Below, one piece after another: positions 47,626 through 63,646 of a stretch of DNA of 64,000 nucleotides. The stretch lies in the NCBI GenBank assembly GCA_965218695.1, contig OZ244651.1, forward strand, positions 2,208,001 to 2,272,000. The letters are read 5' to 3'. This DNA comes from Nitrosopumilus sp. (lineage in GTDB: Archaea; Thermoproteota; Nitrososphaeria; Nitrososphaerales; Nitrosopumilaceae). The first letter of the stretch is position 1, and each line of letters opens with the position of its first letter. The notes under the pieces are model-generated. The model saw nothing but the letters and a program-made list of their open reading frames with translations, searched no databases and was not told the DNA's origin. Position numbers and translations under genes: made by a program.

Positions 47626-47934
47626 GGAGTCACCACCCCTCTTTGAAGAATGCCAGGGCCAAGTATGCAGCAGCAGCAGGCAGCAGCATAACCGCCCCCA
47701 GCCTGTCTTATTCCCGTACCGTGTGACTTGACATGCATTGAAACAATCACTCTCTCCCCCCAAAAGAGAGTCCCATCGGCAGAATGCATGCCCAGGCAGA
47801 TCCCGGATCCTGACACGTGGCCGGCTCCGGTTCTGTGAAGTTGTAGGTACATAGGCATGAATATGGATCTTCTCCAGATTGATGCTCGGGAGGGCACTGT
47901 TCAGAATTGTGGATCAATGTTAAATCATGCCAAG

Positions 47935-48054
47935 CCAGATCATCTATGGTAACCCGTCCCCGGACCTATCCTTGCCTTGCGTCCGGCTTGCCACTTTGTG
48001 TATGCCTTTTGCCCTCTTAAGCATTATCTGCGGACAGAATCCTGCCAGATCCGC
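47935..48054. repeat. Single-arm homolog of the 58383-58655 inverted repeat
   Basis: CATCTATG..TAACCC..TTGCGTCC..CTTAAGC..CAGAATCCTGCCAGATCCGC shared with 58390-58503. Confidence 0.85.
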
Positions 48055-48217
48055 AGAAGATACGGCTGTTTGCCCCGCGACGTGACATGCATAATCCCTT
48101 CCGGGGGGTCTGGGGGGCGTCCCCCCAGCATTCATGTAAAAACATCCCGTCATTCCCATAATTTGTGCACAGCATCCGCTATATCCGGCAGGTCTGCTGA
48201 CGTCACCGGTTCTGCGT

Positions 48218-49291
48218 CTACACCCTCATCAGCTTCTTCATCTTGGTGCGGTACAGCGTCTTGTTCCTGTCCACGTACAGGGTGCCGTCCGACAGCATAT
48301 GCCATATGATCGTCAGCATCTTGTTTGCGACGTGCGTCATGGCAATGTACGGCTTGTGCCTCTTGATCAGGCGGGCATAGTACCCCTTCATCCTCACGTC
48401 GTGGTGCGCTGCGACCATCGCGCACTGGATCATCACCCAGTTGACCTTCCGGTTCGAATCCTTCTTCATCCTGCCGTGGTACAACGTGTCGCCGGACTGG
48501 TGGAGCGTGGGACACATCCCGGCCCAAGACACGAGCTTCTTTGGGCTGTCAAACCTTTCGATGCCGTCGATCTCCGCTGACACGAGTGCAACCGAGAACA
48601 CGCTCATCCCCGTCATGCTCAGTATTTTGGAGCTGTAGCTGCCGCTGACGTAGCGCCTGATCTCGCCTTCGGTCTTTTTTATCTCGCCGTTGTAGTGCCT
48701 TATCCTGGATATGCAGCGGTCAAGGACGAACCTGTCGTGGACGCTTCCCATGTCCGCCCCCACGAGGTATTCCAGTACCTTCTCGCTCCAGACGTCTTGT
48801 CCACCGTCCTTGGGGCTGATGTCGTACTTGTCAGTCAGCGTGTGCCCGAAGTTGATCTCGCTTGTCCTGTCCTGCACCAGACGGATCTGGTATCTGATGA
48901 CCTGCTTTATCCCACGGGATTCCGTGGATCCTATGTGGCATGCGGGAACCAAATCGGCCCTGAGCAGGTGGGCAAGCGTCCTTGCGTCGACGGTGTCGTT
49001 CTTTATGCTGGCCCACGCGATTGCCTTGATCTTGAACGGGTTGGCAAGGTCGATGGGGATTCCCGCCTGCTCAAACGCGTCTGCCGTCTTTATCCAGTGG
49101 TTTCCGGTAGACTCGCAGACCGCCCTGCACTGCCCGTATTCGGTCCTGGCACTTGCCGCAAACTCGGAGGCGCCTGCCACGGTGTTGGCGTACGAGGATT
49201 CCTCGAGAATGTTTCCCTTTGAATCCATTATGCACGTGACGCACTTCCTCTTTCCAATGTCTATTCCGATACTCTTTTCTATTTTTCTCAC
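48218..49291 (-). CDS. IS110 DEDD recombinase (intact)
   Basis: GIDIGK, CESTG, KNDTVDA, AGMCP..HQSG. Confidence 0.95.
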   Translation of the reverse strand: MRKIEKSIGIDIGKRKCVTCIMDSKGNILEESSYANTVAGASEFAASARTEYGQCRAVCESTGNHWIKTADAFEQAGIPIDLANPFKIKAIAWASIKNDTVDARTLAHLLRADLVPACHIGSTESRGIKQVIRYQIRLVQDRTSEINFGHTLTDKYDISPKDGGQDVWSEKVLEYLVGADMGSVHDRFVLDRCISRIRHYNGEIKKTEGEIRRYVSGSYSSKILSMTGMSVFSVALVSAEIDGIERFDSPKKLVSWAGMCPTLHQSGDTLYHGRMKKDSNRKVNWVMIQCAMVAAHHDVRMKGYYARLIKRHKPYIAMTHVANKMLTIIWHMLSDGTLYVDRNKTLYRTKMKKLMRV

Positions 49292-49299
49292 CTCCCTTT

Positions 49300-49449
49300 T
49301 GCTTGTGGCAGGCCGGAAGCTGCAAACATCTATCAGGGCTCGGAACCCAGTAACACAGCAGCTCGGATGGCCCCATTCACTAAACAGGCCTTGATGGCCA
49401 TGATCTGATAGGGGTCGGCCCGCTACGTATGGTGGGCGTGTGGGGTTAT
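49300..49449 (-). ncRNA. Candidate IS110 bridge RNA region
   Basis: ~150-nt non-coding segment upstream of the recombinase with potential stems (GCCC/GGGC, CTATCAG/CTGATAG, GGCC pairs); position as in characterised IS110 bridge RNAs. Confidence 0.55.
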
Positions 49450-49485
49450 CATGCGTTCACCAAAAATGAACAGTACCTACTGGAA

Positions 49486-51249
49486 GTAATTGTTTCGCTT
49501 TTTGAAGTAACCGGATGGCCTAGCGGACATCCATGGTACCGGGAATGAATCTAATAATTTCGTACTCGGGATGACAAAGTTAGACCATCGCGATCCAAGT
49601 ACGAGTGGGTGCCAGTCCCTTCGATCTTTGGAAATGAAGGAACCAGCACGCCGAACATGCTTGGAGGCGGAGGAATTTAAGGCAATGCACGAACACTCCT
49701 TGCCGCAAATCCCGCTGGATGCCGGGGCGTGCATGGAACCAGGGTGCAGGTGCTGCCTGCACTGGGCAAAAATGTTCGGCGACGTGCTAGGCCCAACCCG
49801 CAAGATCCTGGAGGCAGCCTGCGAAATTGCAGGCGAGTCGGGCGCAGACTGGAAGGAGGCCGGGCGCCTGCAGGCGCTCGTCTCGTCCCTCACAGAGGAC
49901 AACAAGAGGTACGCCAAGACAAACAGGGATCTCAACGCCAAGGCAAACGGGATCAGCGTCCCCGCGCCCAAGAAGAAGGCCGGTCAGGGAAAGAAGGCCG
50001 CCGGCAGGCCCAAGGGGCAGAAACCCACCGTCAACTGCAGGCCAAAGCGCGTGGACCGCGTCGAGGAGATCGACTGCAAGGAGTGCCCCGACTGCGGCGG
50101 CGGGCTCTCTGGGAGGGTGACTGCCGAGTACGATCGCATCGTGACTGTCATGCGCGTCCTGTTGGAGAACGTCAGGTACGTCATCAAGCGGCGCTGGTGC
50201 CGCGTGTGCAAAAGACAGGTCTCCGGGAGGGTTCCCGGCGCGGCAAAACACGCGCGCCGTTCATCAAACTTTGACGCGGTCATGACGTCCCTGAACATGA
50301 ATGGCATGTCGCATGCCAGGACCGCAGAATTTGGCGGCGACGCGTTGGGGCACGTAACCTCGCGCTCGTCTGCCTACCGCGGCAAGATCAGGCAGGCCGG
50401 GCGCATGGCGCCGGAACGCGATTCGGTAAGGGAGCGCGTGCTGGAGGCGCCACACCTGAACGTAGACGAGTTTCACTGGCCGCTGGGCGGCAAGCGCGGC
50501 TACGGGATAGTGGCTCTGGCAAAAAATCACTGCCTCGTGGAGGTGGCCGACTCGCGGGACATCAAGACGCTCCGCCAGACGCTCCCGGGCTACCGGGGAA
50601 CCATAACGCAGGACTCGTATCCCGGGTGGCTCCACGTGGGATCGTGCCGCCAGATGTGCGTGTGGCACCAGGAACGCCTGGTGCAAAAGGACGTCCTGAC
50701 CAACCCCGGGGGTGACGTTCCGGCGTTTCTGGACAGGCTGTCGGCAATCCACATGAAGATTTACCGCGCCTCCAGGATCAAGGACCGGCACCCAAGGATC
50801 GTCGCTGCCCGCTGCATAGACGCGGAGCTGCGCGAGCTGATGAACGAACCGTTTGCAGGCGACGGGGACGGCACCATCGCCCGGCACAAGAAGAGGTACC
50901 CGCGGGAGGGATATTTCATGACCACCTGCCTGCACGTGGACGGCATCGAGCCTGACAACAACGCAGTCGAGAGGGCCAACCGGAGGTTCGTGGCCGTAAG
51001 GAGCGACGGGGGCGGGAACCGCTCCAGGAAGGGCATGGATGCCAACTCGATCCTGTTCACGCTGCTGGCAACTGACAGGATCAACAAGGACAGCTTCTTT
51101 GATCACCTGGTCCGCTCGTCTTCCGGGGACGGATGAGGCGCCGTCCGACGGCACGTGCAGTGCGTCACGGGGAAAAAGAGTCCACGGTAAGGGGAAGGCT
51201 GCACCCGCTCCGCTGCCAAGCAGCCCACTTCAAAAAGCGAAACTATTAC
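49486..51249 (+). mobile_element. IS66-family element (transposase 49571..51136)
   Basis: TIR GTAAT(T/A)GTTTCGCTTTTTGAAGT; 8-bp TSD TACTGGAA; VDE, TQD, DNNAVERANR. Confidence 0.95.
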
Positions 51250-51305
51250 TACTGGAACAAGAAAAGGGTGCGTTAGGACTTTTCCTGCTTGTCGACCCGT
51301 GTTTT

Positions 51306-51623
51306 CTATATGGAATTCCATGACATTATGATGGGAGGACCGAAACAGGCCGGACCTATGGAAACCGCCTGCCCGCCCGTGAGGCCAATGCCGATGACTA
51401 CCATGGGCATCACGTACCACCACTTGAACCTCTTTGCCTTCCATACGCCGACTGTCGCCATCGTGGCGAATATCGCCGTCGCGGCCGGCCCTAGGCACCA
51501 CACTACCCCTGGAAAGTTCAGCCACATAACAATCATGGCCAGTTGGTACGCGGCCCCGATTATGCCCGCGCCGGCAAACCACGCGTATGCATTTCTGGTA
51601 AAAAAAAGGAGGGTGGGATGCAT
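51306..51623 (-). CDS. Small multi-TM membrane protein (cargo)
   Basis: Three hydrophobic helices; bracketed by 23-bp inverted motifs. Confidence 0.65.
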   Translation of the reverse strand: MHPTLLFFTRNAYAWFAGAGIIGAAYQLAMIVMWLNFPGVVWCLGPAATAIFATMATVGVWKAKRFKWWYVMPMVVIGIGLTGGQAVSIGPACFGPPIIMSWNSI

Positions 51624-51643
51624 CAGTCTACTGTGTAAAAGAA

Positions 51644-51690
51644 GGCACTGGTAAATTTAGGTGATTAGATCACCCTAATTTACCAGAGTC
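51644..51690. repeat. Back-to-back pair of the 23-bp motif forming a hairpin
   Basis: CTGGTAAATTTAGGTGAT-TAG-ATCACCCTAATTTACCAG (16/18 paired). Confidence 0.9.
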
Positions 51691-51704
51691 ACTGACCCCC
51701 CCCC

Positions 51705-51902
51705 CTAGGCTTTCAAGAGATCGCGGATCAGATTGGCAGAATCTGCCTTCTTTTGTTGTTTCAGGTGGGCCTTGTTGCTACTGTGTATCACCCAAGCTAT
51801 CAGACAACTGGCTACGAGTCCTATGGCAGATCCGATTATTGTACCCAATTCTATCAATTCTAACAATGAAAGCCCGAATATTGGACTTATGTCCGTTATC
51901 AA
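51705..51902 (-). pseudogene. Short, probably truncated membrane-anchored cargo ORF
   Basis: One TM helix plus charged helix; stops at a G10 tract next to a motif copy. Confidence 0.45.
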
Positions 51903-52057
51903 TGAGAAGTATCCATGCTTGGCACTTATGTGAAGTATTTTTTCGTCACCGAACTCAATTCAGAGAAGACTCATTTCCAGCTCCCGTAAACCCGACAGAA
52001 CCAATCTGGAGAAGATCTATATTCATGCCTATGTACCGATAACTTCACAGAACCCCG

Positions 52058-52149
52058 GTACATACTCAGGTTCCCCTCAAACTCAGGCGTGAATATACGT
52101 AAAACAGTACATGTTTACGCCTAGACAATACCGGGACCTGAGTATGTAC
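52058..52149. mobile_element. 92-bp MITE, copy 2
   Basis: One difference from 29305-29396; TSD GAACCCCG. Confidence 0.95.
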
Positions 52150-52199
52150 GAACCCCGGCTCCGCAGGTTTATAATGCAGTGTACCGTACTATACGGTAC

Positions 52200-52544
52200 A
52201 TGCAATCAAGACTCACGTGTATGACCCCGGAAGTGGCGGATCAGTTTGGAGACTTTATCATAAAGAGGGCCGAGCAGACACAGGACGTGGTAAGGGCAAG
52301 AACGAGGGATTTTAGCATGCTGTCCCTGCTGAAACTGCTGTATCAGCTCAGGGGCAGTCCCATGTCGTTTGTAGAGCTGTATACAAGGTCGGAGATCAGA
52401 ATGAAGAGATCATTCCTGAATTACCTGCACCTGTGTGTGGACTATAACTTTGTCAAGAGGGAGGCAGTCGGATGCCGGGTAAGATACTCCATCACGTGCA
52501 GGGGGAGGACCATGCTGGATCTCTTCACGCAGAAAGATAATTAG
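52200..52544 (+). CDS. Winged-helix DNA-binding protein
   Basis: ..SFLNYLHLC..YSITCRGR wHTH pattern; start uncertain. Confidence 0.7.
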   Translation: MQSRLTCMTPEVADQFGDFIIKRAEQTQDVVRARTRDFSMLSLLKLLYQLRGSPMSFVELYTRSEIRMKRSFLNYLHLCVDYNFVKREAVGCRVRYSITCRGRTMLDLFTQKDN

Positions 52545-52566
52545 GCAGATCAGGCAGTACAAGATC

Positions 52567-53292
52567 ATGCAGAATGAATTTCCCGAGGCGGAGGTCTTTG
52601 AGACAAGAGACGTGGAGATGAACAGTCCGGTAATATTTGCAGGATTCGTAGGGGCCGGCCTCGTAGGCCCGGTAGCAATAGACCACATAATCAAGGAGCT
52701 GGAGATGGACGAGGTGGGAGTGATAAGATCAAAGTATCTCCCCCCGTCCACTGTCTTTATGAGGGGAAGGCTTCGCCATCCGTTCAGATTCTACGCAAAC
52801 AAGAACGGAACAATCTGTGCAATAATCTGCGAGGTGACCCTGAGGATGGACGGACTGTACTCGATGATATCGACCATTCTGGACTGGGCTGCATTGAAAG
52901 GCTCAAGGGAGATTGTGATTTTGGACGGGGTTGCAAGTGAGGCGCATGACAACAAGGCGTACTGCGCAGCAGAGGATGACTTGATCAGGACAATGGCAGA
53001 CAAGGACATCAACATGATACCGCAGGGGTTCATTACGGGTATGCCGGGAGGCATACTCAACGAATGCCTAGTAAGAGAGATCCAGGGCATAGCCCTGCTG
53101 GCAAAGGCAAACGACATGGAGCCTGATTCGGCGGCGGCGGCAACGCTCGTTGAGGCGCTTGGTAGGTTCTACGAGATTGACATAGATGCCACCGGACTGC
53201 GTGAGGAGAGCGAGAGGATTCAGTCAGAGTTCACCGAGCTCTCTGACAAGTATGTAAAGCATAGAAGAGAGATAACCGGGATGTACATGTGA
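52567..53292 (+). CDS. Proteasome assembly chaperone (PAC2 family)
   Basis: GFVGAGLVG, PFRFY, GFITG..G, GMYM C-terminus. Confidence 0.88.
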   Translation: MQNEFPEAEVFETRDVEMNSPVIFAGFVGAGLVGPVAIDHIIKELEMDEVGVIRSKYLPPSTVFMRGRLRHPFRFYANKNGTICAIICEVTLRMDGLYSMISTILDWAALKGSREIVILDGVASEAHDNKAYCAAEDDLIRTMADKDINMIPQGFITGMPGGILNECLVREIQGIALLAKANDMEPDSAAAATLVEALGRFYEIDIDATGLREESERIQSEFTELSDKYVKHRREITGMYM

Positions 53293-53361
53293 GGGTATGG
53301 CTTCACAGACGGGAGACGCCGGTTCGAAATTCATTTTAAGCCGGGGATACACGCGTATGTC

Positions 53362-53691
53362 ATGCCAGATGTCACGTATGATGATTTTGCCAAACTCGAC
53401 ATCCGGGTAGCAAGAATCGTTGCAGCCCAGCCCATACCTGGAAAATCAAGGATTCTCAAGGGACGGATTGATCTGGGAGACGGGGATCAGCGTGATGTGA
53501 TTATAGGGGGCGCACAGTATTTTCAGCCCGACGAGATTGTAGGGATGACGGCAGTGGCGGTTGTAAATCTGGAACCAAAGAGGCTGGCCGGAGTCGAGTC
53601 AAGCGCAATGCTGCTAGCCGCAGACGTAAACGACAAGCCGTTCTGGCTTACCGTATCCGGGGATGCTCCTCCTGGAAGCCCCGTAAAGTAA
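53362..53691 (+). CDS. tRNA-binding OB-fold protein (CsaA/MetRS C-terminal-like)
   Basis: DDFAKLDIRV, VNLEPKRLAGVESSAMLL. Confidence 0.9.
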   Translation: MPDVTYDDFAKLDIRVARIVAAQPIPGKSRILKGRIDLGDGDQRDVIIGGAQYFQPDEIVGMTAVAVVNLEPKRLAGVESSAMLLAADVNDKPFWLTVSGDAPPGSPVK

Positions 53692-53807
53692 GTCGGTCGG
53701 TCGGCCGGCCGGCTGCCAACGGCAGATCATGCACGCCCCCGACGAATACGGCACAGGCAGTACCCAGGCATGGGCGGTGATCTTAAATGAAAAAGTTGGA
53801 TCTATGA

Positions 53808-54368
53808 CTAGTCATAAATCATTAGATTCTTCTCTTCTAGCATCGAATGAAGGTTGTTCACTGACCGGTAAACGTCGGGCTCTTTTTTGGCACCCGTACA
53901 GACAAGCTTTCCTGAGGAAAATAGCAAAATGACTGTCTTGGGGTCTAGCATTCTATGAATGAGTCCTGGAAACTGTTCTGGCTCGTACATGCTTCGCGGC
54001 AGCGTCCTTGCGGCCTGTTCAAGATGAATCCTTCCACCTAGGTTGATCGATGCTACGATGTTCTGAATCTCTACTACTGCGTCCTTCTTTACCTTGATTC
54101 CGCCCTTGCGGAGCTTTTGAACCACCGTCTTGACTGCCTTTCTTGCCATCTCCTCTGATTTGGAGCCTGTACATACCATCTTTCCCGAGGTGAAGATCAG
54201 TGTCGCAGTCTTGGGTACCTTGAGTCTGAAGACCAGTCCGGGAAACTGATCCGGATGGTACTCTACGTCCGGAAACGTCCTTGTGATCTCGTTGAGATCC
54301 ATCTTTTGATCCACAGATGCCGAGGCTACAACATTTTCCACACTTACAATAGGTTTCGTTTGTGGCAT
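53808..54368 (-). CDS. tbp: TATA-box-binding protein
   Basis: Duplicated NVVAS/NIVAS..QFPGL..SGK.VCTG repeats. Confidence 0.98.
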   Translation of the reverse strand: MPQTKPIVSVENVVASASVDQKMDLNEITRTFPDVEYHPDQFPGLVFRLKVPKTATLIFTSGKMVCTGSKSEEMARKAVKTVVQKLRKGGIKVKKDAVVEIQNIVASINLGGRIHLEQAARTLPRSMYEPEQFPGLIHRMLDPKTVILLFSSGKLVCTGAKKEPDVYRSVNNLHSMLEEKNLMIYD

Positions 54369-54460
54369 ATTCCGCTTTTTGGTATTTGAACTATAATAAA
54401 AAAGTGCTTTTCTCGTCCGGTATTAGACATGCTTTTTAAGGAAAGTGTGCTCGCAGGGCG

Positions 54461-55816
54461 ATGACCCGGGAAAAGAGGCCCAAGAGGCACGACAAGATGC
54501 TGGAATTGGAGTCCGTGGTGCGCTGGCGGGGGCAGCTCAACGAGAGCGGCATCAGCAGCGGCATAAAAATCAACACCTACACGCGCGCCGTCTACCTGTC
54601 CAAGCTGTACCATTTCAACGAGTGGCTGGTCAAGCGCGAGTTCACCGTGCGCGTGCCGGTCGTAAAAAGCAAAAGGACGGTCCGCGAAAGCAGGCGGATG
54701 CCGTTTGCCAACGTGGAGGTGCTGCTCCACTTCGGCGAGGACGACAACGCCAAGAAGGTAAAGAGGATCGTTCAGGACTACCTGGCGGTGCTGCGCGACA
54801 GGGGGCTGTCCAACTCCACCATGGCCGGAGCGTGCTCGGCCATCAAGTCGTACTTTGACACGAACGACGTGGTAGTCAACGTCAAGCCACATTCGCTCAA
54901 GAGAAACGGATCAGTGGCTGTCGACGAGACCAAGCTGACGCTGCCGGAATTCTACAAGATGATGACCGTCGGCAAGATGAACCACCTGACGCGCGCCGTC
55001 CTCATGGTAAAGTTCCAGGCGGGGCTGGACAGGAGCACGCTCGCCGACAGGTTCAACTTCCACGCGTACGCGCAGATCGCGAAGTTCTGCGGGACCAAGA
55101 ACCACCGCGAATGGAGCCTCGACAAGTGCCCGATCCCGATCAGGCTCGTGCGGGTAAAGACCGGCGTCCAGTTCACCACCTTCATAGACCGCGACGCGCT
55201 GGCGGCGCTCAAGGACTACCTGGCGTGGAGGGAGGAAAATCACCCGTCGCACGATCCCGACGGCCCGATCTTCATCACCACGAAGGGCGAGCCGGTGTCC
55301 GTCGAGTGGGTGTCGCACACGTTCGCGAAGGGGGCCAAGTACTCCATGACGCAAAAGCGCCTGGGCCCACGCAAGGTCAAGCTGACGTCGCACTCCGTGC
55401 GCCACCTGCTCAAGACGACCCTCATCACCTGCGGGTGCGACCGATACGTGGCAGACTACGCCATCGGGCACGCGCCCGACACCTATGAAAGGCCGGATCT
55501 GTGTCCGGACAAGCTGAGGCGCGAGTACGCCAAGGCGTCGCACGCGATCAACATAATCTCCAAGGCCGCATCGAAGATAAACGACATGAGACCCGCAAAC
55601 GCCATGGAAAAGGATCTGGAGGCAAGCAAGGCCAAGGTAGAGGAGTTGGAAAAGAAGGTCAACGAACTGAAGGCCGAGATTGCCAAGAAGAACGCCAGAA
55701 GCGCAGACGCCGTATCCAAGCTCGACATGGTGGTAAGGGCGATCATCGACGCGTCAGGCGATCCCGACGGGGACTTCCGCCAGAACCTCAAGGACAGGCT
55801 CGGCGGACTGCCTTAG
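54461..55816 (+). CDS. Tyrosine recombinase/integrase with C-terminal coiled coil
   Basis: SAM-like N-domain (LSNST..AIKSYF), AGLDR, RVKTG, HSVR, AIGH, downstream Tyr. Confidence 0.85.
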   Translation: MTREKRPKRHDKMLELESVVRWRGQLNESGISSGIKINTYTRAVYLSKLYHFNEWLVKREFTVRVPVVKSKRTVRESRRMPFANVEVLLHFGEDDNAKKVKRIVQDYLAVLRDRGLSNSTMAGACSAIKSYFDTNDVVVNVKPHSLKRNGSVAVDETKLTLPEFYKMMTVGKMNHLTRAVLMVKFQAGLDRSTLADRFNFHAYAQIAKFCGTKNHREWSLDKCPIPIRLVRVKTGVQFTTFIDRDALAALKDYLAWREENHPSHDPDGPIFITTKGEPVSVEWVSHTFAKGAKYSMTQKRLGPRKVKLTSHSVRHLLKTTLITCGCDRYVADYAIGHAPDTYERPDLCPDKLRREYAKASHAINIISKAASKINDMRPANAMEKDLEASKAKVEELEKKVNELKAEIAKKNARSADAVSKLDMVVRAIIDASGDPDGDFRQNLKDRLGGLP

Positions 55817-55985
55817 CGTGCCTTGACTCCAACGCGACTCTCAATCTGCAAGAGACGGGATAATTGCGGGTTGTTCCGTGCGGACGCGATGCTTGCCCTC
55901 AGTAACCAACAGATTAGGCAACGCATGAAACAGAAACGGCAGGCACAGTCAAAAATACTGGTTCAAATGCGGCAACCATAAAGTC

Positions 55986-56340
55986 CTACTCGTCATCCTT
56001 TTCAATACCCCTTTTCCTGTCGTAACGGCGGATGATTACTGGCAAGATTGCGCCTGCCATGAAAAGCGGACTGGCAGTGACTAAGAACGTGAGAAAGAAT
56101 ACGTGCCTTTCCGTTTTTATCTCGCACGGCCACGTGATTCCGTCCACCGAACATGGCGGAATCTGCATTTGCCATTGGGGGCAAGGTTGCATGATTCCGT
56201 TCACCTCATACCAGCAATTGTCAGAATTGTGCCTGACGGCAGGCTCCAGAGGGAGTGCCAGCGCAAGATATGCGATCACGGCCACCGGGAGCAAGAAGAA
56301 AAACCCCCATGACAAGAATAATCTTGTGCCCGGTTTTCAT
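55986..56340 (-). pseudogene. Small Cys-containing membrane protein with 1-nt frameshift in a G-run
   Basis: ATG 56340 (MKTGHKIILVMG) joins FFFLLPVAV.. only if one G is removed at ~56304-56308. Confidence 0.6.
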
Positions 56341-56603
56341 TTTTTGATCCTCCACAATGCCAAGACGCCCATGCAGGCAAACGACACACCCAGCATGAGG
56401 AACCCAGCCGGTTCTTCTGGCACGACGTCAAAAAGATTTGTGGACGCCGACGTTCCAAAGAAGTTGAGCCCACTAATGTGTGATGACTCGTTGTTGCAAT
56501 CTGGCAGCATTTCGCATGTGAGCCAAACAACGTGTGGCACCTGAGGCCAAACTGCAAAGAAGGCCAGAGTCGTGATTGCCGGGGCTTTGTACCGATTTCT
56601 CAT
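56337..56603 (-). CDS. Small membrane protein
   Basis: Two hydrophobic segments; ATGA overlap with next gene. Confidence 0.6.
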   Translation of the reverse strand: MRNRYKAPAITTLAFFAVWPQVPHVVWLTCEMLPDCNNESSHISGLNFFGTSASTNLFDVVPEEPAGFLMLGVSFACMGVLALWRIKK

Positions 56604-56625
56604 CTTCTGAATTTCGGCTTCGTTT

Positions 56626-58224
56626 GTAACTGTGTAGTTTTTTGATCAAATGCTGAATTCCATGTCTCCAAGAAACTATGTATTTTTTTGACATAGGACC
56701 AGACCCTCGCGCAGGACCGTGCCAAGATCATCTCCCCTTGCCTTGCATGTCTGCTTGATGCTCATCAGCGTGGCAATGGCGTCTGCGCCCTTCTTTGACC
56801 TGCTCCCGTTGCTGTTCTTGCGCAGGATGACGCACGGCCTGATGGCCCGCTCTGCCCGGTTGTTGTGGTATTCGACATCGTCTGTCTCCAGAAACGCAAA
56901 CAGGTGATCCCTTTCCCGCACCAGCCTCTTGCGCATCCTGTTGCAGTGCTTGCAGTCGCGGTTCTTCTCGAGCCTGCCTATCATGGACGCGATGCGACGA
57001 TCCAGCCTCTTCTTTGCGGCAAGCGCGTCTGCCCCTCCCGGAACGGCGCCGTCGACGTGCGAGTCCCGCAGTATCGCGCGCAGCGTCCTTGCGTGCCGAC
57101 GGTAGTCCTGGCCGGGATTCTTGTATCTCAGGGTGGCCTTGACGTCCCGGACGTAATGCAGGTGGCACTTTTGGTGCATGGCTCCTATGACGTTCCACGC
57201 TCCCCACGAGTCAGACGTCACGCATCCCGGGTAGTCCTTGCCGAGCATCTTTTTTGGAACCTTCGAGTTCCTGCGGCGGTGCACCTCGTAGATTACGGCG
57301 TACCTTGTTACCACCGCCCACAGCCAGTAGTTCGTGCCGTCGACGCGCCAGACGGACTCGTCCCCGTTTATCGCAGGCGAGTTTCTTACCTCCTCCTTGA
57401 TCTTCTCGTACAGCGGCCCGAGCTCCCGGGCCATCCTGCACACCATACGGTTTATCGCAGATTCCGTGATTCTTGCCGAGTACATCATCATGACAATATT
57501 GCATATTCTGAGGTCTGACATGCCGTGCAGCCTGAGGATGACCATCATTATCATAAAGTTGATCCCGTACCTGGAGTTTGGCAGTGCCAGCGGAGTCCTG
57601 CCGGACACGGTCTTCTTGCAGTTCCTGCAACGTCTTCTCTTTACTGTCACCTTGATGTGCTTTAGTTCCGTCTTGGCAGCCTCCCTTACCACCTTTGTGT
57701 ACGTGGATACGCACTCGGAGAGGTCGGAGCTGCCGCAGTTGTCGCACGTGTGGGGATCTGCCGTCTCCTCTGCGTCTATTCTTTCAGGACGCGCAAGGCC
57801 CGTGCGCCTGTGGACGCTTGGCTTGCCCTTGGCCTTTGTGCGGCGTCTGGCACTGCCCGTCTTTTTGTCAGGTTTTGCGCCGATGCTCCTTGCAACGGCA
57901 GCCGATATGGTGCCCCTTGCTTCCTGCAACTCTGCCGTGAGGTCCTGGATCTGCCTGAGGGCGGCAGCGTAAAGATCAGTGAGTTTGGCTATCTGCTGGT
58001 CCTTTTTGGCCAGCTGCCCTGCCATCATCTCCACTTTTTCCTCCAGTTCTGCAATCCTTGACTCGGAATTATCATCAGACATAATGCAAACCGTGGGAAC
58101 TGATGATCTAAAAATTGGAATGGAGAGAAAAACTCGATCAAGTGATTAAAAATAGTTTCAAAAAAACTACACAGACGTTTGTAGGCATGGAATTCAACAT
58201 TTGATCAAAAAACTACACAGTTAC
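56626..58224 (-). mobile_element. IS66-family element, copy 2 (transposase 56676..58082)
   Basis: TIR GTAACTGTGTAGTTTTTTGATCAAATG; 8-bp TSD CTTCGTTT; close paralog of 6133-7773. Confidence 0.95.
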
Positions 58225-58254
58225 CTTCGTTTAATTATAATGGTTCCGAGTGTC

Positions 58255-58301
58255 GGTTCTGTAACGTTATCGTGTGCTGTGTATGGATCTTCTCCGGGTT
58301 G
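58255..58301 (+). repeat. Diverged copy of the 47829-type transposon end
   Basis: GGTTCTGT..GTT..TATGGATCTTCTCC..TTG. Confidence 0.7.
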
Positions 58302-58382
58302 GATCGCGGTTGAGGCTACACATTCACGGGGGCTCTTCAAACAAGACGGTCTGACGCATATCGATTGGATGAATTTTGTCTA

Positions 58383-58655
58383 AGATCCACATCTATGTTA
58401 ACCCCTCCCCGGGCTTGTCCAAGTTTTGCGTCCAGCTTGTCATATTGAGTATGTTTTTTTCCTTCTTAAGCGTTACCTGCATGCAGAATCCTGCCAGATC
58501 CGCGGGACAACAAGATCCAAACCTTGCCGTTTTCTGCAAATTTGACTGAATTCTTCTTGCAGGTAACGCTTAAGAAGACAAAGGGCATACCCAAAGTGAC
58601 AAGCTGGACGCAAAACACGGATGAGTCCGGGGAGGGGTTACATATATGTGGATCT
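58383..58655. repeat. 273-bp structure with ~100-bp imperfect inverted arms
   Basis: AGATCCACAT..CTTAAGCGTTACCTGCA / TGCAGGTAACGCTTAAG..ATGTGGATCT; no TSD seen. Confidence 0.9.
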
Positions 58656-58776
58656 GGAATGCCCTGTGGAGCATTTCTGGTGATCCTACTGATTGGTTTG
58701 CTGAAATCTTCGCCTTAGTCTGGCTTTCTTTGTAATTCTCTGTCGTGATTAAAGAAAAAGATTAGTTGTCTACGTC

Positions 58777-59340
58777 TTATCCGCCTCTTCCCAGATGTTC
58801 TGTTATCTTTTCTAGGTCCAGAGCCTCGTCATCCCATTGTTCATGGTATTTACCATTTTCACGTAGAACAAATGTAGATTGAATTCCTTGTGAATCATAG
58901 TATGTTCCATGTACTAAATCATCTACGGGATTATCCAGATAAACCAAGACTTGAGCATCTCTCTCGAATGTTGGAACCGGTTCAAATTTGGTTGTGACTT
59001 GATTGTGCGTTCCACCTACAGTCCTTACTGTGATAAGAGCACCTTCTAGCCCATCATCGCCCAAAAGAACATCGGTTACACGAAGATCAGTCAGTGTAAA
59101 GACCTTGGGGAAGACCAATTCACCTACACTAAAGTAGGTAAGATATGTCCTTGAATCATCTACGATGCCTTTAACGGCGATATCGGCTTTTTCTGCCATT
59201 TTTTCTGCTGTGCCTTCGACCATAAACCCATGTGTTTTACTTTCATGAGGTATGTATCCCATCACTGCGACAGTAAAAACCAACATGACCGTTAGAGAAA
59301 CTCCAATGGCTGGAATGGACACCAATTTTTTACGGCTCAT
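58777..59340 (-). CDS. Membrane-anchored/secreted hypothetical protein (cargo)
   Basis: Start MSRKK; N-terminal TM; lower GC than backbone. Confidence 0.8.
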   Translation of the reverse strand: MSRKKLVSIPAIGVSLTVMLVFTVAVMGYIPHESKTHGFMVEGTAEKMAEKADIAVKGIVDDSRTYLTYFSVGELVFPKVFTLTDLRVTDVLLGDDGLEGALITVRTVGGTHNQVTTKFEPVPTFERDAQVLVYLDNPVDDLVHGTYYDSQGIQSTFVLRENGKYHEQWDDEALDLEKITEHLGRGG

Positions 59341-59364
59341 TTTCAGTATTTTCCTTGAATTTCT

Positions 59365-60462
59365 GATCACCTAAATTTGCCAGTGCCATGTAACATTATC
59401 AGGTGCCAAGCATGGAATATGAATTTTCTCTGAAATGGTGTGGTGGATGGAGAAAGGCATTTTATGGGAACTGGTAATGCGGTCCACCCCGTTGGAAGTA
59501 TGAGCAGCTCTCTGTCTTCAACTTGGCAATTCTTCGTGCACGCCTCTGCATAATATTCCATCGATGAGTATGCTCTTGGTGTGGTAGAAGACTGATGTTG
59601 GATCCGTCGGAATGTGTTTCCCGTCAGGTGGATCTTCTGGCTACTGCTCCCATGCTCTTGCCTGTGCCTCTTCGAGGTACCTGTCGCAGTCATCACCGTC
59701 TTCTATCAGGATACAATCGCCGTACTCGCCGACGACTAGCCAGTAGTATAGGTCTGCTTCGCGCATCTCATACGGGGGACGTCCAAGCAGTGTTTGGGTC
59801 TCCACAATCTCCAGTATCTCCGGTGCCAGCACACTCATGCTGCCAAACATGTCCTCCAGGCTTTCACTGACCGCGCCTACTGGGTATTCTGCCTCCAGGT
59901 ATGCGTGAAGTTTTTGCAGCGGCTCCAGATCAGGCTGCTGGTACGTTCCGGCCAGCTTGCTTTCATGTATTACGAGTGCTGCCACCTTTTCCGGATTTAC
60001 TACCGCGTCTGTCAGTACAACAAAGTTGGTTGTACGTATACCCAAGTTGATGGATTCCTCCATGTGTGGGTTGCCTTTGCTTGCCTCCAGCCTTTCGTTC
60101 CAGCGGGTATAATTCCACCTGATCTCTTCTATTCCGTCAAAGTGTTCAACTAACGCAGGGGACATTTCGTACGGTATGCGGTAGCCGTCAAAGATCTTCC
60201 CGTTTGAGATGGATTCATGCCTCAACTCGGCTATTGACCGCTCTTCCTGTGTTTCCTCGCTCGGGGCATCTGCCAGCCCGTCATCATTTCCTACAAAGGA
60301 CAGTCCGGCCTGCACTACCAGAAGCAATGCCACAACTGCAAGCATTCCAGCTAGGATTAATTTTTTGCCAGTCATTGCCTTTTTGTTCATTGTTGATGTG
60401 GGAAAGTTTGGTTTAATAGGCTTTGATTAAAGATCTGTGGGCTCTGGTAAGTTTTGGTGATC
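59365..60462. mobile_element. Putative gene cassette bounded by 23-bp inverted motifs
   Basis: GATCACCTAAATTTGCCAGTGCC (59365-59387) and inverse GATCACCAAAACTTACCAGAGCC (60440-60462). Confidence 0.6.
59641..60390 (-). CDS. Secreted acidic hypothetical protein (cargo)
   Basis: Signal/TM N-terminus; 249 aa. Confidence 0.75.
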   Translation of the reverse strand: MNKKAMTGKKLILAGMLAVVALLLVVQAGLSFVGNDDGLADAPSEETQEERSIAELRHESISNGKIFDGYRIPYEMSPALVEHFDGIEEIRWNYTRWNERLEASKGNPHMEESINLGIRTTNFVVLTDAVVNPEKVAALVIHESKLAGTYQQPDLEPLQKLHAYLEAEYPVGAVSESLEDMFGSMSVLAPEILEIVETQTLLGRPPYEMREADLYYWLVVGEYGDCILIEDGDDCDRYLEEAQARAWEQ

Positions 60463-60723
60463 TGTCGTTCACTGTTCAAAAGTGTGTTTTGGGATATTCT
60501 CAGGATTCGGTTCCGCCGCATTTCATCAGGGCGTTCGAAAGTGTCATGCCCCCAATAATGTGGTTCAAAAGTGAACTGAGTCACATTCACACCTTGGTGG
60601 TAGATTTTCGTGATCTCAGTACGATCTTTTGAGTAACAAATGAGAGATCACTAGAATTTGCCAGAGCCATCGGCACCATACGCACATACAGGTCGGGGGC
60701 TTATATCGATAAGTATACAACCT

Positions 60724-61793
60724 TTACAGTTGTAAAGTCGTGCGTACCGCGTTGTTCCACGCCATCTTGTGGACGTACTTGATCCTGTAGTCGTCTTCCA
60801 CGAGTCCGGCGTACAGTTTAACGAATCCGTCCATGTCGTCCAAAAGCGACAAGGCCCATTTGATGCCGTCCAAGACGCTAGATACAATCACTTGGCAGCC
60901 GTGTTCCATCCCGATCCGTTCCGCTTCCAGCACTGCCGCTCCCATGTCGCCGACCGGCGTAGCGGCCAGCAGTCTGTATTTGTTGGCAGATGGGGCTTTG
61001 GAACCGCCTCTTACGCGCCGCACGATCACTGGGGTGATCGACTTTCCAGGCCGGATCTCGACTAACTCGTAGACGAATCCGGTATCTGGATCGAACTCCT
61101 TCACGTGCCCGAACGCGCTAGCTCCCGTACCGCGCACAACCGTCTCGGTTACCGACGCGCCGCCCCACGCGCCGTTTCCAGCAGCTTCCCTGTAGGCAGC
61201 ATGAACTGCCAGCGTAGGAAGTCTTATCCTTGCCTGGTCGCCGCACTTGAAGTGCTTTTCAAGTATCCTTTCCACATCATTTGCAGTCAGGCCTACGGGC
61301 CTGTCGAGTTTTGCCTTCCCTATCTCGCGCAAGTCAACCAAGACCTTGAGCGCGTAAACCAGAAGGTCTCTCGGATTGGCCTTGCCGTCCTCCACGTGGC
61401 CCAGCATGGACAAGAACGCCTCCCTGACTCCCCCGCCACCGATGTCGCCGGGATATTCAAATCCATACGGCGCCTTCCAGTCAAACGAATGATCAGACCA
61501 CCCCGATCTCCGATCCGCAGAGAAGCCGTTGGACTCCAGAAACGGCGTGACAGTCCCGGCATCCAGATTGCGCCCGGAATAGCCGCCCGGAATGTCTGAG
61601 CGGTGCAGCCGCACGTCCTGTCCGGGATCGGTGCATTTCTTGAGCAACGACGTGATCATGACCGTGACTGCCGCCCCGTTGCCTGACGACGCCACCGTTT
61701 CCACCATTTCCTTGGCCAGCTTGTACGGTGCGTGCCCGCCACCGGAGGCAGCTATATTCAGGCATTCTCGGAGAATATGACGTGCATTCATCA
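60724..61793 (-). CDS. Type II restriction-endonuclease-like protein, apparently degenerate
   Basis: YSGRNLD..VTPFL..SGW..PY..YPGDI pattern recalled from REase-like proteins; likely start MMNARH. Confidence 0.55.
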
Positions 61794-61799
61794 TTTTTG

Positions 61800-61988
61800 C
61801 AGGGAAGAAATGGCATATAAGCGCGGCACTCAGCGTCAGGAGGTAGCGGCTGGCGGCAATCCTCCGGGAACTGACGTTCTCTGCGGACTGGACATAAATC
61901 TTGTATTGCTCAAGAATGTCTGCGGTAAAGGAGCCATCATATGTTTTCTTGGTCTTGCGAACCAGATCCTCGTCCTGTCGGTCAGTCA
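61800..61988 (-). pseudogene. N-terminal fragment of a RipA-like membrane protein
   Basis: ILEQYKIYVQSAENVSSRR..YLLTLSAAL; family assignment from memory. Confidence 0.5.
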
Positions 61989-62180
61989 CGCACATAGTGG
62001 GCGGATGGTCGGGTGGCTTGCCTGCATCGTGTAGTCGCTCTTGCACCAACCACATCTGCGCCCGTCTTTCCAGATGTTTACTTCAAACCATTCCATTGCT
62101 GTCTCGTCATCGGGAAACTTTTCAAACAGTTCTGTCAGGGTTATCCCCTTGCCGATGCGGTCTTGGGGCGGTCTGGGCAC
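61986..62180 (-). pseudogene. IS1595-family transposase N-terminal zinc-ribbon remnant
   Basis: LTELFEKFPDDETAMEWFEVNIWKDGRRCGWC; no DDE domain; GGTTCT-type end at 62313-62318. Confidence 0.8.
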
Positions 62181-62192
62181 GTACCCGTTCTG

Positions 62193-62285
62193 GTAACTGC
62201 TTAGGTTCACGCCTAGGCTCGTCTTGCAATTGGTCAAGTTTACGCCTGCTAATCCTGAAATTCACGTACGAACCTAAGCAGTTAC
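62193..62285. mobile_element. 93-bp MITE (second type)
   Basis: 16-bp TIR GTAACTGCTTAGGTTC; flanking direct repeat CCCGTTCTG. Confidence 0.92.
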
Positions 62286-62335
62286 CCCGTTCTGCGACGA
62301 ATGATTTAATTTAGAACCGCGACAGGTAGCATCTA

Positions 62336-63457
62336 GTGAATTTTACAGACATCGGTCTTGACCAAATCTTCTCAACAGGCGACGACACCAACCCCCTGCT
62401 GATGCTGGTCTGGATCCTGCCGATAATCCTCTTTGTGTTCTACGGACAACGGATCCAGCTGTATGTGACCTCGGGGGAGATCAACAAGGCCATCAAGAAG
62501 CTTGACGGGTTCAGGACAGAGGCCAGAACCGAACTAATCAACTATGTGAATCAGAACCTAGAGCCAAAAGACGATCCGGTAAGGAAGATTAACCGCTTTC
62601 TGGACTATTTCACGATCATGCCAGTAGACATGGATCCTGCAGGCATAGTGGAAAAGGTCAGGCACACAGTCAGATCCAGGGAGGACTACACCAGGGAGCA
62701 TGCACGGTCACTCTCGCCTGGAGTCGGTGATCTGGAACTGAGCAAGGTTCAGACCCTAATCGAGATTGCATCCTCGCTGCAGATGATTCACAAGATCATC
62801 AACCACATGTTCCTGACTGCAAAGAGACAAAACAACTATCCGCTGATCCTGCCCCTGCAGATGATTCTCCCATTCATAATGGAGCATGCAGTGGCGATGA
62901 AGGAGGCAATCCCCGCATTCAAGTCAGGACAGCCCATAGGCGACGGGATAGGGCCCATGGTGGTTGGAAGAATGATGTTGGAGAGCAAAAAGGAGGCAGC
63001 GGCGTTTCAGACGGTTCTGGCAAGGACCGAGTTTGAGGGCAGGACGGTGCTTCTCCTGAAGGCAAAGGGGCCTGACTCCACTGTGGGACGGCCTGCAGAC
63101 GCGCTGGAGGGCATCATCTCCAAGGACAGGATGGACATGATAATAATGGTCGATGCGGCACTAAAGATGGAAGGTGAGGAGTCTGCGTCCGTGGCGCACG
63201 GGTTTGGCGCGGCAATAGGAGGAATCGGGACGGAGAGGTTTCAGATCGAGGCGGTTGCAACCGACAACGGCATCCCGGTACTCTCGATTGTGGTAAAGCA
63301 GTCGGTCCGGGAGGCCATAACCCTCATGACCAGGAACATATCCAATCAGGCAGACAACGTGCGATCCCAGGTGTATGAGATGATTCTTGAAAATACCCGG
63401 CCGGGCCAGTCAGTACTGGTGATTGGCGTGGGCAACACGGCAGGAGTTCTGCAATGA
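62336..63457 (+). CDS. DUF1512 family protein
   Basis: PIGDGIGP, GPDSTVG, VDAALKMEGE, GVGNT. Confidence 0.85.
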   Translation: MNFTDIGLDQIFSTGDDTNPLLMLVWILPIILFVFYGQRIQLYVTSGEINKAIKKLDGFRTEARTELINYVNQNLEPKDDPVRKINRFLDYFTIMPVDMDPAGIVEKVRHTVRSREDYTREHARSLSPGVGDLELSKVQTLIEIASSLQMIHKIINHMFLTAKRQNNYPLILPLQMILPFIMEHAVAMKEAIPAFKSGQPIGDGIGPMVVGRMMLESKKEAAAFQTVLARTEFEGRTVLLLKAKGPDSTVGRPADALEGIISKDRMDMIIMVDAALKMEGEESASVAHGFGAAIGGIGTERFQIEAVATDNGIPVLSIVVKQSVREAITLMTRNISNQADNVRSQVYEMILENTRPGQSVLVIGVGNTAGVLQ

Positions 63458-63636: not shown

Positions 63637-63646
63637 ACTGTCATTA

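What the first reader, a model, noticed from the sequence alone, without database searches (positions are those of the whole stretch)
49455..60668. 23-bp inverted motif brackets individual cargo genes: candidate archaeal gene-cassette system
Seen: consensus GATCACCWRAATTTRCCAGWGCC occurs at 49455(+, 18/23), 51644-51666(-, 22/23), 51668(+, 20/23), 59365(+, 23/23), 60440-60462(-, 22/23), 60593-60615(-, 16/23), 60646(+, 22/23), and weakly at 58663-58685(-). All copies lie between or at the edges of cargo genes; I saw none in the housekeeping backbone. Inward-facing pairs enclose single genes: 49455..51666 is ~440 bp once IS66 is removed and holds the 105-aa membrane gene, and 59365..60462 holds the 249-aa secreted gene. 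Neighbouring units meet back-to-back (GTGAT-TA-GATCAC at 51661-51673). All enclosed genes face the same way and are membrane, secreted or defence-like. Inference: mobile single-gene cassettes stacked into arrays, analogous to integron attC or pdif modules but with a different site. The alternative is a family of mini-transposons that insert next to one another.
Basis: partly seen in the sequence, partly recalled or inferred. Interest (0 to 1): 0.9.

Follow-up and report, generated by a model that had tools for sequence, protein, structure and literature searches.

The report
Transposon ends bracketing archaeal accessory genes
The 23-base motif is the inverted end-repeat of a family of small gene-less jumping elements in a few sponge-type ammonia-oxidising archaea; pairs of them can carry accessory genes along, an ordinary kind of mobile DNA rather than a new cassette system.

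Summary
The motif is real and far from chance: 5 window hits at up to 3 mismatches, 0 in 100 shuffles. It is not a recombination site of a cassette array. It is the 23-bp terminal inverted repeat (tip GGCTCTGG, inner end GGTGATC) of a non-coding element of about 202 bp, with 47-121 bp mini forms. I count 64 ends in this genome. The repeat occurs in 12 of 301 family genomes and is abundant in four.

The window holds one full copy (60440-60668), a 47-bp end-to-end palindrome (51644-51690), a solo end (59365-59387) and a mini element split by an IS110 (47892-47914 and 49455-49477). All lie in two strain-variable insertions.

Four such composites of 1.3-3.5 kb carry perfect 8-bp target duplications and two more match 7 of 8 (92 pairs examined). 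None of 55 single or mini elements has one. One 2.8-kb repeat-bounded module is 99.1% identical between two genera whose backbone is 68-80% identical.

End sequence, 8-bp duplication and a shared subterminal box point to IS6-type transposases, but no transposase gene carries these exact ends. Earlier notes of this scan already called these ends IS6-like. Verdict: new member of a known kind.

The parts
60440..60668 (.). Full copy (229 bp) of the non-coding repeat element. Left end repeat 60440-60462, conserved core with three GTTCAAAAGTG boxes, internal copy 60593-60615, 30-bp spacer, right end repeat 60646-60668.
   Evidence: sequence; 23 BLAST matches in G000 and 23 in G002, 73-83% identity; no Rfam match on it.
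51644..51690 (.). 47-bp palindrome: a left and a right end repeat joined at their inner ends with one base between. This is the minimal, core-less form of the element.
   Evidence: I6. The same form is seen solo at G000 C1:528119 and 1565077. In G002 it forms both ends of a composite with a target duplication (L038).
59365..59387 (+). Solo end repeat, tip at 59387. Its inner edge abuts the 197-aa gene module.
   Evidence: 0 mismatches; homology to G002 and G018 stops at 59366.
47892..47914 (.). Left half (18 of 23, my count) of a roughly 72-bp mini element whose right half is 49455-49477. The IS110 at 47941-49453 splits the two.
   Evidence: sequence; an X8 contig joins 47917 to 49457 with 22 letters between. 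Searches give the IS110 limits.
49455..49477 (+). Right half of the split mini element, tip at 49477. The IS66 inserted directly behind the tip.
   Evidence: It is 21 of 23 identical to G002 variant GGCACTGTTCATTTTTGGTGATC.
58663..58685 (-). Doubtful degenerate copy.
   Evidence: My count on the sequence: 12 of 23 to the main consensus, 16 of 23 to the internal variant CCTGCTGTTAAATTCAGGTGATC listed.
49486..51246 (+). IS66-family insertion sequence (521-aa transposase at 49571-51136), flanked by the 8-bp duplication TACTGGAA.
   Evidence: PF03050; I2 arms; flanks.
47829..52054 (.). 4.2-kb element without its own transposase, bounded by 58-bp inverted repeats (47829-47886 and 51997-52054; GGTTCTGTG tip plus the GGATCTTCTCCAGATT box). 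It holds the IS110, the IS66, the 105-aa gene and the palindrome.
   Evidence: I1, 91% complementary; an X8 contig skips 47679 to 52164. (box).
51306..51623 (-). 105-aa ORF lying between the mini element and the palindrome. No Pfam family.
58751..59366 (-). 197-aa gene module (ORF 58777-59370; the ATG used here is at 59343).
   Evidence: 95.3% to G002 and 86.9% to G018, in other genomic contexts; in G002 and G018 a Peptidase_M10 gene lies directly upstream instead of the end repeat.
59641..60390 (-). 249-aa ORF with an N-terminal hydrophobic stretch, lying between the tips of two separate elements. No Pfam family.
   Evidence: no close homologue in 60 genus genomes; an X8 contig covers 59362-60439 at about 94%.
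54461..55816 (+). Divergent tyrosine recombinase at the left edge of the 7.9-kb island 54413-62285. Context only; not shown to act on the motif.
   Evidence: PF00589, 8.5e-8; far below all NCBIfam cut-offs; island limits.

Best explanation
The 23-bp motif is the terminal inverted repeat of a family of non-autonomous DDE-type transposable elements. It is also repeated inside those elements.

Forms of the element:
- A basic form of about 202 bp: end repeat, a 130-bp conserved core, an internal copy of the repeat, then the other end repeat abutting it.
- Shorter forms, namely 47-bp end-to-end palindromes and mini elements of 57-121 bp.
- Composite forms in which two such ends, GG tips outward, enclose one to a few passenger genes.

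Proposed mechanism. A transposase supplied in trans binds the ends and the subterminal boxes and joins the GG tips to a staggered 8-bp cut. Most likely it is one of the roughly 380-aa IS6-type enzymes with an N-terminal zinc finger that these genomes hold; the multi-copy 1696-bp element I call IS_A is the best candidate. Any left-tip and right-tip pair can move what lies between, as in IS26 pseudo-compound transposons. Later recombination and nested insertions leave solo ends and scrambled flanks.

In the window, the genes 'enclosed' by inward-facing motifs lie outside the elements, between neighbouring insertions in two accessory islands.

Shown: repeat family, ends, intergenic position, target duplications around composites, cross-genus identity, strain variation.
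Inferred: which transposase acts, the replicative or cointegrate route, and any promoter effect.
For: Repeat family and its ends.
- 15 full-length copies in G000 end exactly at GGC...GCC.
- 15 distinct copies from three genomes align over the whole length.
- C3:7647-7848 and C9:6559-6760 are 99.5% identical yet have unrelated flanks.
- Homology inward from an end never exceeds 285 bp.

Position. 0 of 50 copies lie in ORFs of 250 aa or more, which cover 66% of the genome; 7 of 50 lie in ORFs of 150 aa or more, which cover 80.5%.

Target duplications. Of 92 left-tip/right-tip pairs, 4 have perfect 8-bp duplications and 2 match 7 of 8. In the recount of 90 pairs these were 5 of 35 composites, 0 of 30 single and 0 of 25 mini elements; an offset control gave 0 of 90.

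Horizontal movement. G082 L056:3113-5894 equals G002 L041:3536-6317 at 99.1% over 2783 bp. Homology ends at the element tip, and in G002 the module is flanked by two direct copies. The backbone of the same two genomes is 68.5-79.6% identical.

Link to the IS6 family.
- PMC7986276 (passages) gives a GG tip, cTGTt and caaa motifs and 8-bp repeats as family traits. Variants here read GGCTCTGTTCAAAT.
- The 16-bp box GGATCTTCTCCAGATT has 40 hits at up to 2 mismatches: 17 in IS_A-type ends, 13 in element cores, 2 in the window's 58-bp repeats and 8 elsewhere.
- The best NCBIfam match of the IS_A transposase is IS6 (7.4e-24).
- That protein is 99-100% identical in three full copies in G002.

Strain variation. 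Contigs skip 47679-52164 and replace 54412-62286.
Against: - No transposase-bearing element with these exact ends was found. I looked in G000, in the fetched parts of G002, G018 and G082, and in the one metagenome hit.
- IS_A's tip (GGTTCTCCTGCATC) differs from the motif. Its NCBIfam score of 84.6 is below the IS6 cut-off of 125.
- The main motif variant has GGT where the IS6 signature has GTT.
- Single 200-bp copies never show target duplications (0 of 55), which is unusual for ordinary miniature elements and is not explained here.
- An 8-bp duplication also occurs in other IS families (recalled, not tested).
- The solo end at 59365 abuts conserved gene DNA with its inner edge, not its tip. 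Transposition alone does not produce such a junction.
- In three of the composites with duplications the two ends are inverted copies, whereas IS6 pseudo-compound transposons are described as direct repeats.
Confidence: 0.75

Rival explanations
1. Site-specific cassette system. The 23-mers, or the 47-bp palindromes, are sites for a tyrosine or serine recombinase such as the 54461 protein. That enzyme would excise and insert single-gene circles, as at integron attC or pdif sites.
For: - Palindromic 23-1-23 sites stand between accessory genes.
- A tyrosine recombinase heads the island. Its paralogues are numerous in motif-rich genomes: 5 matches in G000, 7 in G002, 8 in G018.
- Two junctions of passenger DNA lie exactly at the palindrome centre: window 59365 and G018 L034:1584.
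- Single and mini elements lack target duplications (0 of 55).
Against: - Perfect 8-bp duplications flank four tip-outward composites.
- Copies end at the GG tips, not inside the motif.
- G082 has 12 copies but 0 matches to the recombinase.
- The recombinase scores 36.9 bits against a cut-off of 220 for the XerA / integron-integrase model.
- A 1-base centre is too short for the 6-8-bp overlap of tyrosine recombinases (established knowledge, not tested).
- No array-wide orientation rule holds outside the window.
Confidence: 0.07
2. Same kind of element, but belonging to a DDE family other than IS6 (for example an IS5/IS903-like or ISH-type group). It would then be moved by a transposase not yet linked to it.
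For: - No IS6-type element carries the exact ends.
- IS5-type (PF01609 with PF13737) and PF13359 transposase genes repeatedly sit inside or beside the composites.
- IS903-type ends as I recall them also begin GGCTTTGTTGAA (recalled, not from any call).
Against: - Those IS5-type and PF13359 elements have their own, different ends and their own duplications, so they are nested insertions.
- The 16-bp subterminal box is shared only with IS_A-type ends, among its 16 exact occurrences.
- G000 has no IS1595-type DDE.
Confidence: 0.15
3. Regulatory element. The motif is an operator or supplies a TATA-like box (AAATTTA) for the gene next to it, and its spread reflects selection for that role.
For: - In the window the motif ends 20 and 22 bp before the start codons of the 105-aa and 197-aa genes.
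- In G000 the 197-aa gene has lost the upstream gene with which it is contiguous in G002.
- A 77-bp mini element sits about 70 bp before a serpin gene in G018.
Against: - By my reading of the list, about 18 of 50 ends in G000 have an ORF start within 200 bp of the tip side, and no preferred spacing appears.
- The whole 202 bp is conserved, not only the motif.
- The duplications and the cross-genus identity show mobility.
Confidence: 0.05

Closest known systems
IS6/IS26-family pseudo-compound transposons and translocatable units (PMC7986276, passages read)
   Same: - Ends with a GG tip and cTGTt and caaa-like motifs.
- 8-bp target duplications that flank the whole composite rather than its individual end copies.
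- A module flanked by two direct, near-identical copies (G002 L041).
- Copies clustered next to one another.
- IS6-type transposases present in the same genomes.
   Different: - The ends here are gene-less elements of 47-240 bp, not complete 0.8-kb insertion sequences.
- Three composites have inverted rather than direct ends.
- The candidate transposases are about 380 aa with a zinc-finger N-terminus and have different tips.
- Cointegrate formation is not shown.
Miniature inverted-repeat elements (MITEs) of prokaryotes, including the two IS6-family MITEs of 227 and 336 bp listed in ISfinder (PMC7986276), and MITE-flanked composite units in bacteria (recalled)
   Same: Short, non-coding, terminal inverted repeats, tens of copies, intergenic position, patchy distribution among relatives, and able to bracket and move passenger genes.
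   Different: - The end repeat is reiterated inside the element, so one end carries a 47-bp palindrome.
- Single copies lack target duplications (0 of 55).
- No autonomous partner with the same ends was found.
- The hosts are sponge-type ammonia-oxidising archaea.
Integron attC cassettes, including archaeal integrons (bioRxiv 10.1101/2022.02.06.479319; search listing only), and pdif modules (recalled)
   Same: Palindromic sites stand between single accessory genes, and a tyrosine recombinase lies nearby.
   Different: - Target duplications are present.
- Two inverted ends bound each unit, instead of one attC.
- There is no integron-type integrase, attI or common promoter.
- The site layout is 23-1-23, not 11-6-11.
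- The sites belong to a 200-bp repeat.

Membership tests
MITE (non-autonomous DDE transposon) | Short, without a gene, bounded by terminal inverted repeats | tested here: met
   202-245-bp copies with 23-bp inverted ends. Only chance ORFs cross them.
MITE (non-autonomous DDE transposon) | Many dispersed copies, some near-identical at different sites | tested here: met
   64 ends in G000. 23 BLAST matches each in G000 and G002. A 99.5% identical pair has different flanks.
MITE (non-autonomous DDE transposon) | Target-site duplication at each insertion | tested here: inconclusive
   Present around composites: 4 perfect and 2 matching 7 of 8, among 92 pairs. Absent around 0 of 55 single or mini copies.
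MITE (non-autonomous DDE transposon) | An autonomous element with the same ends | tested here: not met
   None in G000, in the fetched loci of G002, G018 and G082, or in the one metagenome hit. The whole genomes of the relatives were not read.
IS6/IS26 family (as a derivative) | End repeats of 15-20 bp with a GG tip and cTGTt and caaa motifs (PMC7986276) | tested here: inconclusive
   Variants such as GGCTCTGTTCAAAT and GGCACTGTTCATTT fit. The commonest form, GGCTCTGGTAAATT, has GGT in place of GTT.
IS6/IS26 family (as a derivative) | 8-bp target duplication | tested here: met
   CCAATCTG, AGTCCGGC, CCCAAGGA and TTCTTTGC. IS_A itself has GTAAGCAG.
IS6/IS26 family (as a derivative) | An IS6-type DDE transposase acts on these ends | not testable with these tools
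   - PF13610 hits are present in G000 (16 matches), G002 and G018.
- IS_A's best NCBIfam match is IS6, but below the cut-off.
- The shared 16-bp box links IS_A ends to the element core.
- Binding and catalysis were not tested.
IS6/IS26 family (as a derivative) | Pseudo-compound transposons with directly repeated end copies | tested here: inconclusive
   Direct copies flank the 2.8-kb module in G002, but without a duplication. The three oriented composites that do have duplications carry inverted ends.
Integron | Integron-type integrase with attI and a cassette promoter next to the array | tested here: not met
   The 54461 protein scores 36.9 bits against a cut-off of 220 for NF040815. G082 has the motif without any homologue of it.
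Integron | One attC per cassette, moved by site-specific recombination without target duplication | tested here: not met
   Units carry two inverted ends and 8-bp duplications. I had no attC model available, so the motif was compared with attC by inspection only.
pdif / Xer modules | 28-bp sites made of two 11-bp arms and a 6-bp spacer, in alternating orientation | tested here: not met
   By inspection, the arms are 23 bp and abut with a 1-base centre. The Xer-site layout itself is recalled.

The most novel reading that the evidence does not exclude
The 23-bp ends may define an IS26-like gene-shuttling system built from miniature elements rather than complete insertion sequences. Any left-tip and right-tip pair, down to the 47-bp palindrome, would act as a portable docking and mobilisation module. 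Such modules would carry host-interaction and defence genes (serpins, TPR and secreted proteins, a HEPN/nucleotidyltransferase pair) between co-resident archaeal symbionts of different genera, building cassette-like islands. The lack of duplications around single copies, and the passenger junctions at the palindrome centre, would then reflect a targeted, conservative insertion route next to existing copies.
Probability: 0.2. Interest if true: 0.65.

Novelty: new member of a known kind. Interest (0 to 1): 0.38.

Why it matters
It replaces an attractive but unsupported claim, an archaeal cassette system with a new recombination site, with a documented one. A family of miniature transposon ends, in pairs, moves accessory genes in sponge-type ammonia-oxidising archaea. 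One module is 99% identical between genera whose shared genes are only 68-80% identical.

That gives a concrete vehicle for gene exchange among these symbionts. It also provides a marker for accessory islands in their genomes. I found no on-topic description in print: one search for 'miniature inverted' together with 'Thaumarchaeota' returned a single paper, on an unrelated bacterial family. Two broader searches listed nothing on the subject.

The mechanism class itself is textbook.

Tried and rejected
Searches for an autonomous partner, all negative:
- Inward homology from every end in G000.
- Ends of all PF13610-bearing elements.
- Relaxed end pairs 600-3000 bp apart. These yielded only composites and a separate 1.33-kb element carrying a TnpB-like ORF.
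- IS6-type relatives in G018, G248 and G082.
- IS5-type and PF13359 transposase genes inside composites. They have their own ends and are nested insertions.
- IS1595-type DDE: none in G000.
- The metagenome scan gave one hit, and the genome-contig scan gave ten loci in three records. Neither showed a transposase between such ends.

Other checks that led nowhere:
- Long-distance duplications. No other identical 8-mer, direct or inverted, among the 64 end flanks of G000.
- Rfam. Nothing falls on the element. The only hit in 47000-64000 is a sub-threshold microRNA model on the 273-bp palindrome at 58431-58610.
- Promoter idea. No preferred distance between the motif and the next start codon.
- Sequencing runs. 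No RNA holder is listed, so nothing can be said about expression. All four runs laid were assembled contigs, so circles, starts and rare junctions could not be seen.
- Island att repeats. Inspecting the two borders showed no direct repeat.
- One search was wasted: I submitted only the first 60 residues of a transposase.
- The alignment of IS_A ends to the element start scored above shuffles mainly because of the 16-bp box. I draw nothing further from it.
- Supplementary files of the papers were not consulted.

Full report
**Observation**

It matched none in 100 dinucleotide-preserving shuffles. The coordinates, the back-to-back junction at 51661-51673 and the 443-bp size of 49455-51666 without the IS66 all hold. 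The weaker copy at 60593-60615 is a conserved internal copy found in every full element.

The weaker copy at 49455-49477 is 21 of 23 identical to a variant present four times in a related genome. A contig of run X8 joins 47917 to 49457 with 22 letters between, which is the mini element without the IS110 that splits it here. The copy at 58663-58685 remains doubtful.

**What the motif belongs to**

The window lies in a 2.63-Mb, 9-contig genome with 52.8% G+C. Records holding the same motif are titled Nitrosopumilus sp. and Cenarchaeum sp. assemblies.

With a slightly widened consensus the genome holds 64 copies within four mismatches. They are not free-standing sites. A '-' copy on the left and a '+' copy on the right bound a non-coding repeat of about 202 bp, with variants of 229-245 bp. 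On the plus strand this repeat reads GGCTCTGGTAAATTTTGGTGATC, then core, then GATCACC...CAGAGCC.

The core carries three GTTCAAAAGTG boxes and a GGATCTTCTCCAGATTCA box. It also carries an internal copy of the end repeat, which abuts the far end repeat to form a 47-bp palindrome. Fifteen distinct full-length copies from three genomes align over their whole length.

Homology inward from an end never exceeds 285 bp, so there is no long repeated interior. Two copies are 99.5% identical yet have unrelated flanks. Copies avoid long ORFs: 0 of 50 lie in ORFs of 250 aa or more, which cover 66% of the genome.

A BLAST search with the window copy (60440-60668) gave 23 matches in this genome, 23 in G002 and 1 in G018. 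It gave none in the other 38 relatives searched. The end repeat itself occurs in 12 of 301 family genomes. It is abundant only in G000 (41 copies), G002 (48), G082 (12, a different genus) and G018 (8). Rfam has nothing on it.

**Which units move**

I compared the 8 bases outside every left tip with the 8 bases outside every right tip lying 40-4000 bp away. The comparison covered G000 and the fetched loci of relatives (92 pairs). Four pairs match perfectly:
- G000 C1:39290-40581, duplication CCAATCTG.
- G002 L038:2136-5605, duplication AGTCCGGC.
- G002 L039:2033-5446, duplication CCCAAGGA.
- G018 L034:13-3112, duplication TTCTTTGC.

Two more pairs match 7 of 8. With equal base frequencies, 92 pairs would give about 0.001 perfect matches by chance (my arithmetic).

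A recount by size class covered 90 pairs. Duplications flanked 5 of 35 composites, 0 of 30 single elements and 0 of 25 mini elements. An offset control gave 0 of 90.

The composites carry one to a few passenger genes:
- a 195-aa membrane ORF;
- a HEPN plus nucleotidyltransferase pair;
- an ABC ATPase;
- a 320-aa ORF with an N-terminal signal-like stretch.

Some also hold later insertions of unrelated IS elements that have their own ends. In all of them the GG tips point outward.

**Horizontal movement**

A 2783-bp segment is 99.1% identical between G082 and G002. It holds a UbiA-like gene, an unknown ORF and a UbiE/COQ5-type methyltransferase gene. The backbone loci of the same two genomes are 68.5% and 79.6% identical.

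The homology ends exactly at an element tip. In G002 the segment is flanked by two direct, near-identical element copies. G000 holds an 87-88% copy of the segment with an end repeat beside it.

**The window in context**

Relatives G018 and G248 have the tRNA-binding gene, TBP and DUF1512 genes adjacent to one another. G002 has 1.5 kb of other DNA between TBP and DUF1512. This genome has 7.9 kb there (54413-62285), beginning with a tyrosine recombinase. A contig of run X5 reproduces the G002 form.

A contig of run X8 skips 47679-52164. That stretch is a 4.2-kb element with 58-bp inverted ends and no transposase of its own. Every motif copy in the window lies in one of these two insertions. Between them lie ordinary genes: PAC2, tRNA-binding, TBP.

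The 249-aa gene lies outside the elements, between the tip of the solo end at 59387 and the tip of the full copy at 60440. The 105-aa gene likewise lies between the tip at 49477 and the tip at 51644.

**Family**

The review of the IS6 family (PMC7986276, passages read) gives as family traits a GG tip, cTGTt and caaa motifs in the end repeats, and 8-bp duplications. It also describes pseudo-compound transposons with flanking copies, and only two known miniature derivatives.

Variants of the motif fit (GGCTCTGTTCAAAT...). The commonest form departs by one base.

The genome holds IS6-type (PF13610) transposases of about 375 aa with N-terminal zinc-finger and helix-turn-helix parts. One of these elements, IS_A, has the following properties:
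- It is 1696 bp long, present in six copies, and flanked by an 8-bp duplication.
- Its best NCBIfam match is IS6, below the curated cut-off.
- Its protein is 99-100% identical in three full copies in G002.
- It accounts for G002's only PF13610 hits above the family cut-off.

The 16-bp box of the element core occurs 40 times within two mismatches. Of these, 17 are in IS_A-type ends, 13 in element cores, 2 in the window's 58-bp ends and 8 elsewhere.

This ties the family to IS_A-type elements. However, no transposase gene stands between the exact 23-bp ends anywhere I looked, so the partner remains inferred.

**Rivals**

The integron or pdif reading fails on four counts: the duplications, the polarity, the recombinase (36.9 bits against a cut-off of 220), and G082, which has the motif but no homologue of that recombinase.

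A regulatory reading is not general. It could still hold locally: the motif's AAATTT box lies about 32 bases before the start codons of the 105-aa and 197-aa genes.

**Unexplained points**
- Single and mini copies never have duplications.
- The solo end at 59365 meets the 197-aa gene module with its inner edge. The module is 95.3% identical to G002. In G002 and G018 a matrixin-type gene lies there instead.
- A similar inner-edge junction is seen in G018.

**Verdict**

This is a real, well-defined family of miniature transposon ends and of composites built from them. It is new for this group of archaea as far as my three searches show, but of a known kind.

Noticed in passing
window 58383-58655 (Rfam hit 58431-58610): A 273-bp near-palindrome with arms of about 100 bp gives a sub-threshold match to a plant microRNA precursor model (51.5 bits against 100). 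A diverged single arm lies at about 47935-48070 inside the IS110-type element.
   Followed up: partly
window 58255-58300: A GGTTCTGTAACG tip is followed about 36 bases later by the GGATCTTCTCC box with 2 mismatches. This is a third, degenerate long-end module of the same type as 47829-47886.
   Followed up: partly
window 47941-49453 and five other G000 copies: The copies of this IS110-family element are about 80% alike and end in ...GGGTTATCATG. All are followed by TATTCAAC-like bases, which suggests a preferred target. In the window the element sits inside a mini element.
   Followed up: partly
G000 C1:765674-767011, 825049-826376, 917932-919267: 1.33-kb elements with 24-bp inverted ends (GGMWCTGTAAAGTTACRGTGACCC, 16 of 23 like the motif). 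For the first two I saw perfect 8-bp duplications. They carry only a TnpB-like ORF of about 355 aa. I judged the ORF by eye from its sequence and did not scan it against Pfam.
   Followed up: partly
G000 C1:35520-37215 and G002 (L071): The IS_A transposase is 99-100% identical between two genomes whose shared genes are 93-95% identical, which suggests recent exchange or activity.
   Followed up: partly
G018 loci L031-L033: A 77-bp mini element with identical end repeats stands about 70 bp upstream of a serpin gene in L032. Copies of the same mini element stand in L031 and L033.
   Followed up: partly
window 58751-59366 versus G002 L037:5292-6396: The 197-aa gene follows a Peptidase_M10 gene by 4 bases in G002. 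In this genome the upstream gene is gone and the cut lies 22 bases before the start codon, at the inner edge of the end repeat.
   Followed up: yes
window 62186-62290: A roughly 95-bp element with GTAACTGCTTAGGTT-type inverted ends is flanked by CCGTTCT on both sides. It lies at the right border of the island, just before the DUF1512 gene.
   Followed up: no
G000 contigs C3, C4, C6, C8, C9: The small contigs are crowded with element copies and IS elements: 30 of the genome's 64 ends lie in these five contigs, whose lengths sum to about 125 kb. Their place in the chromosome is unknown.
   Followed up: no
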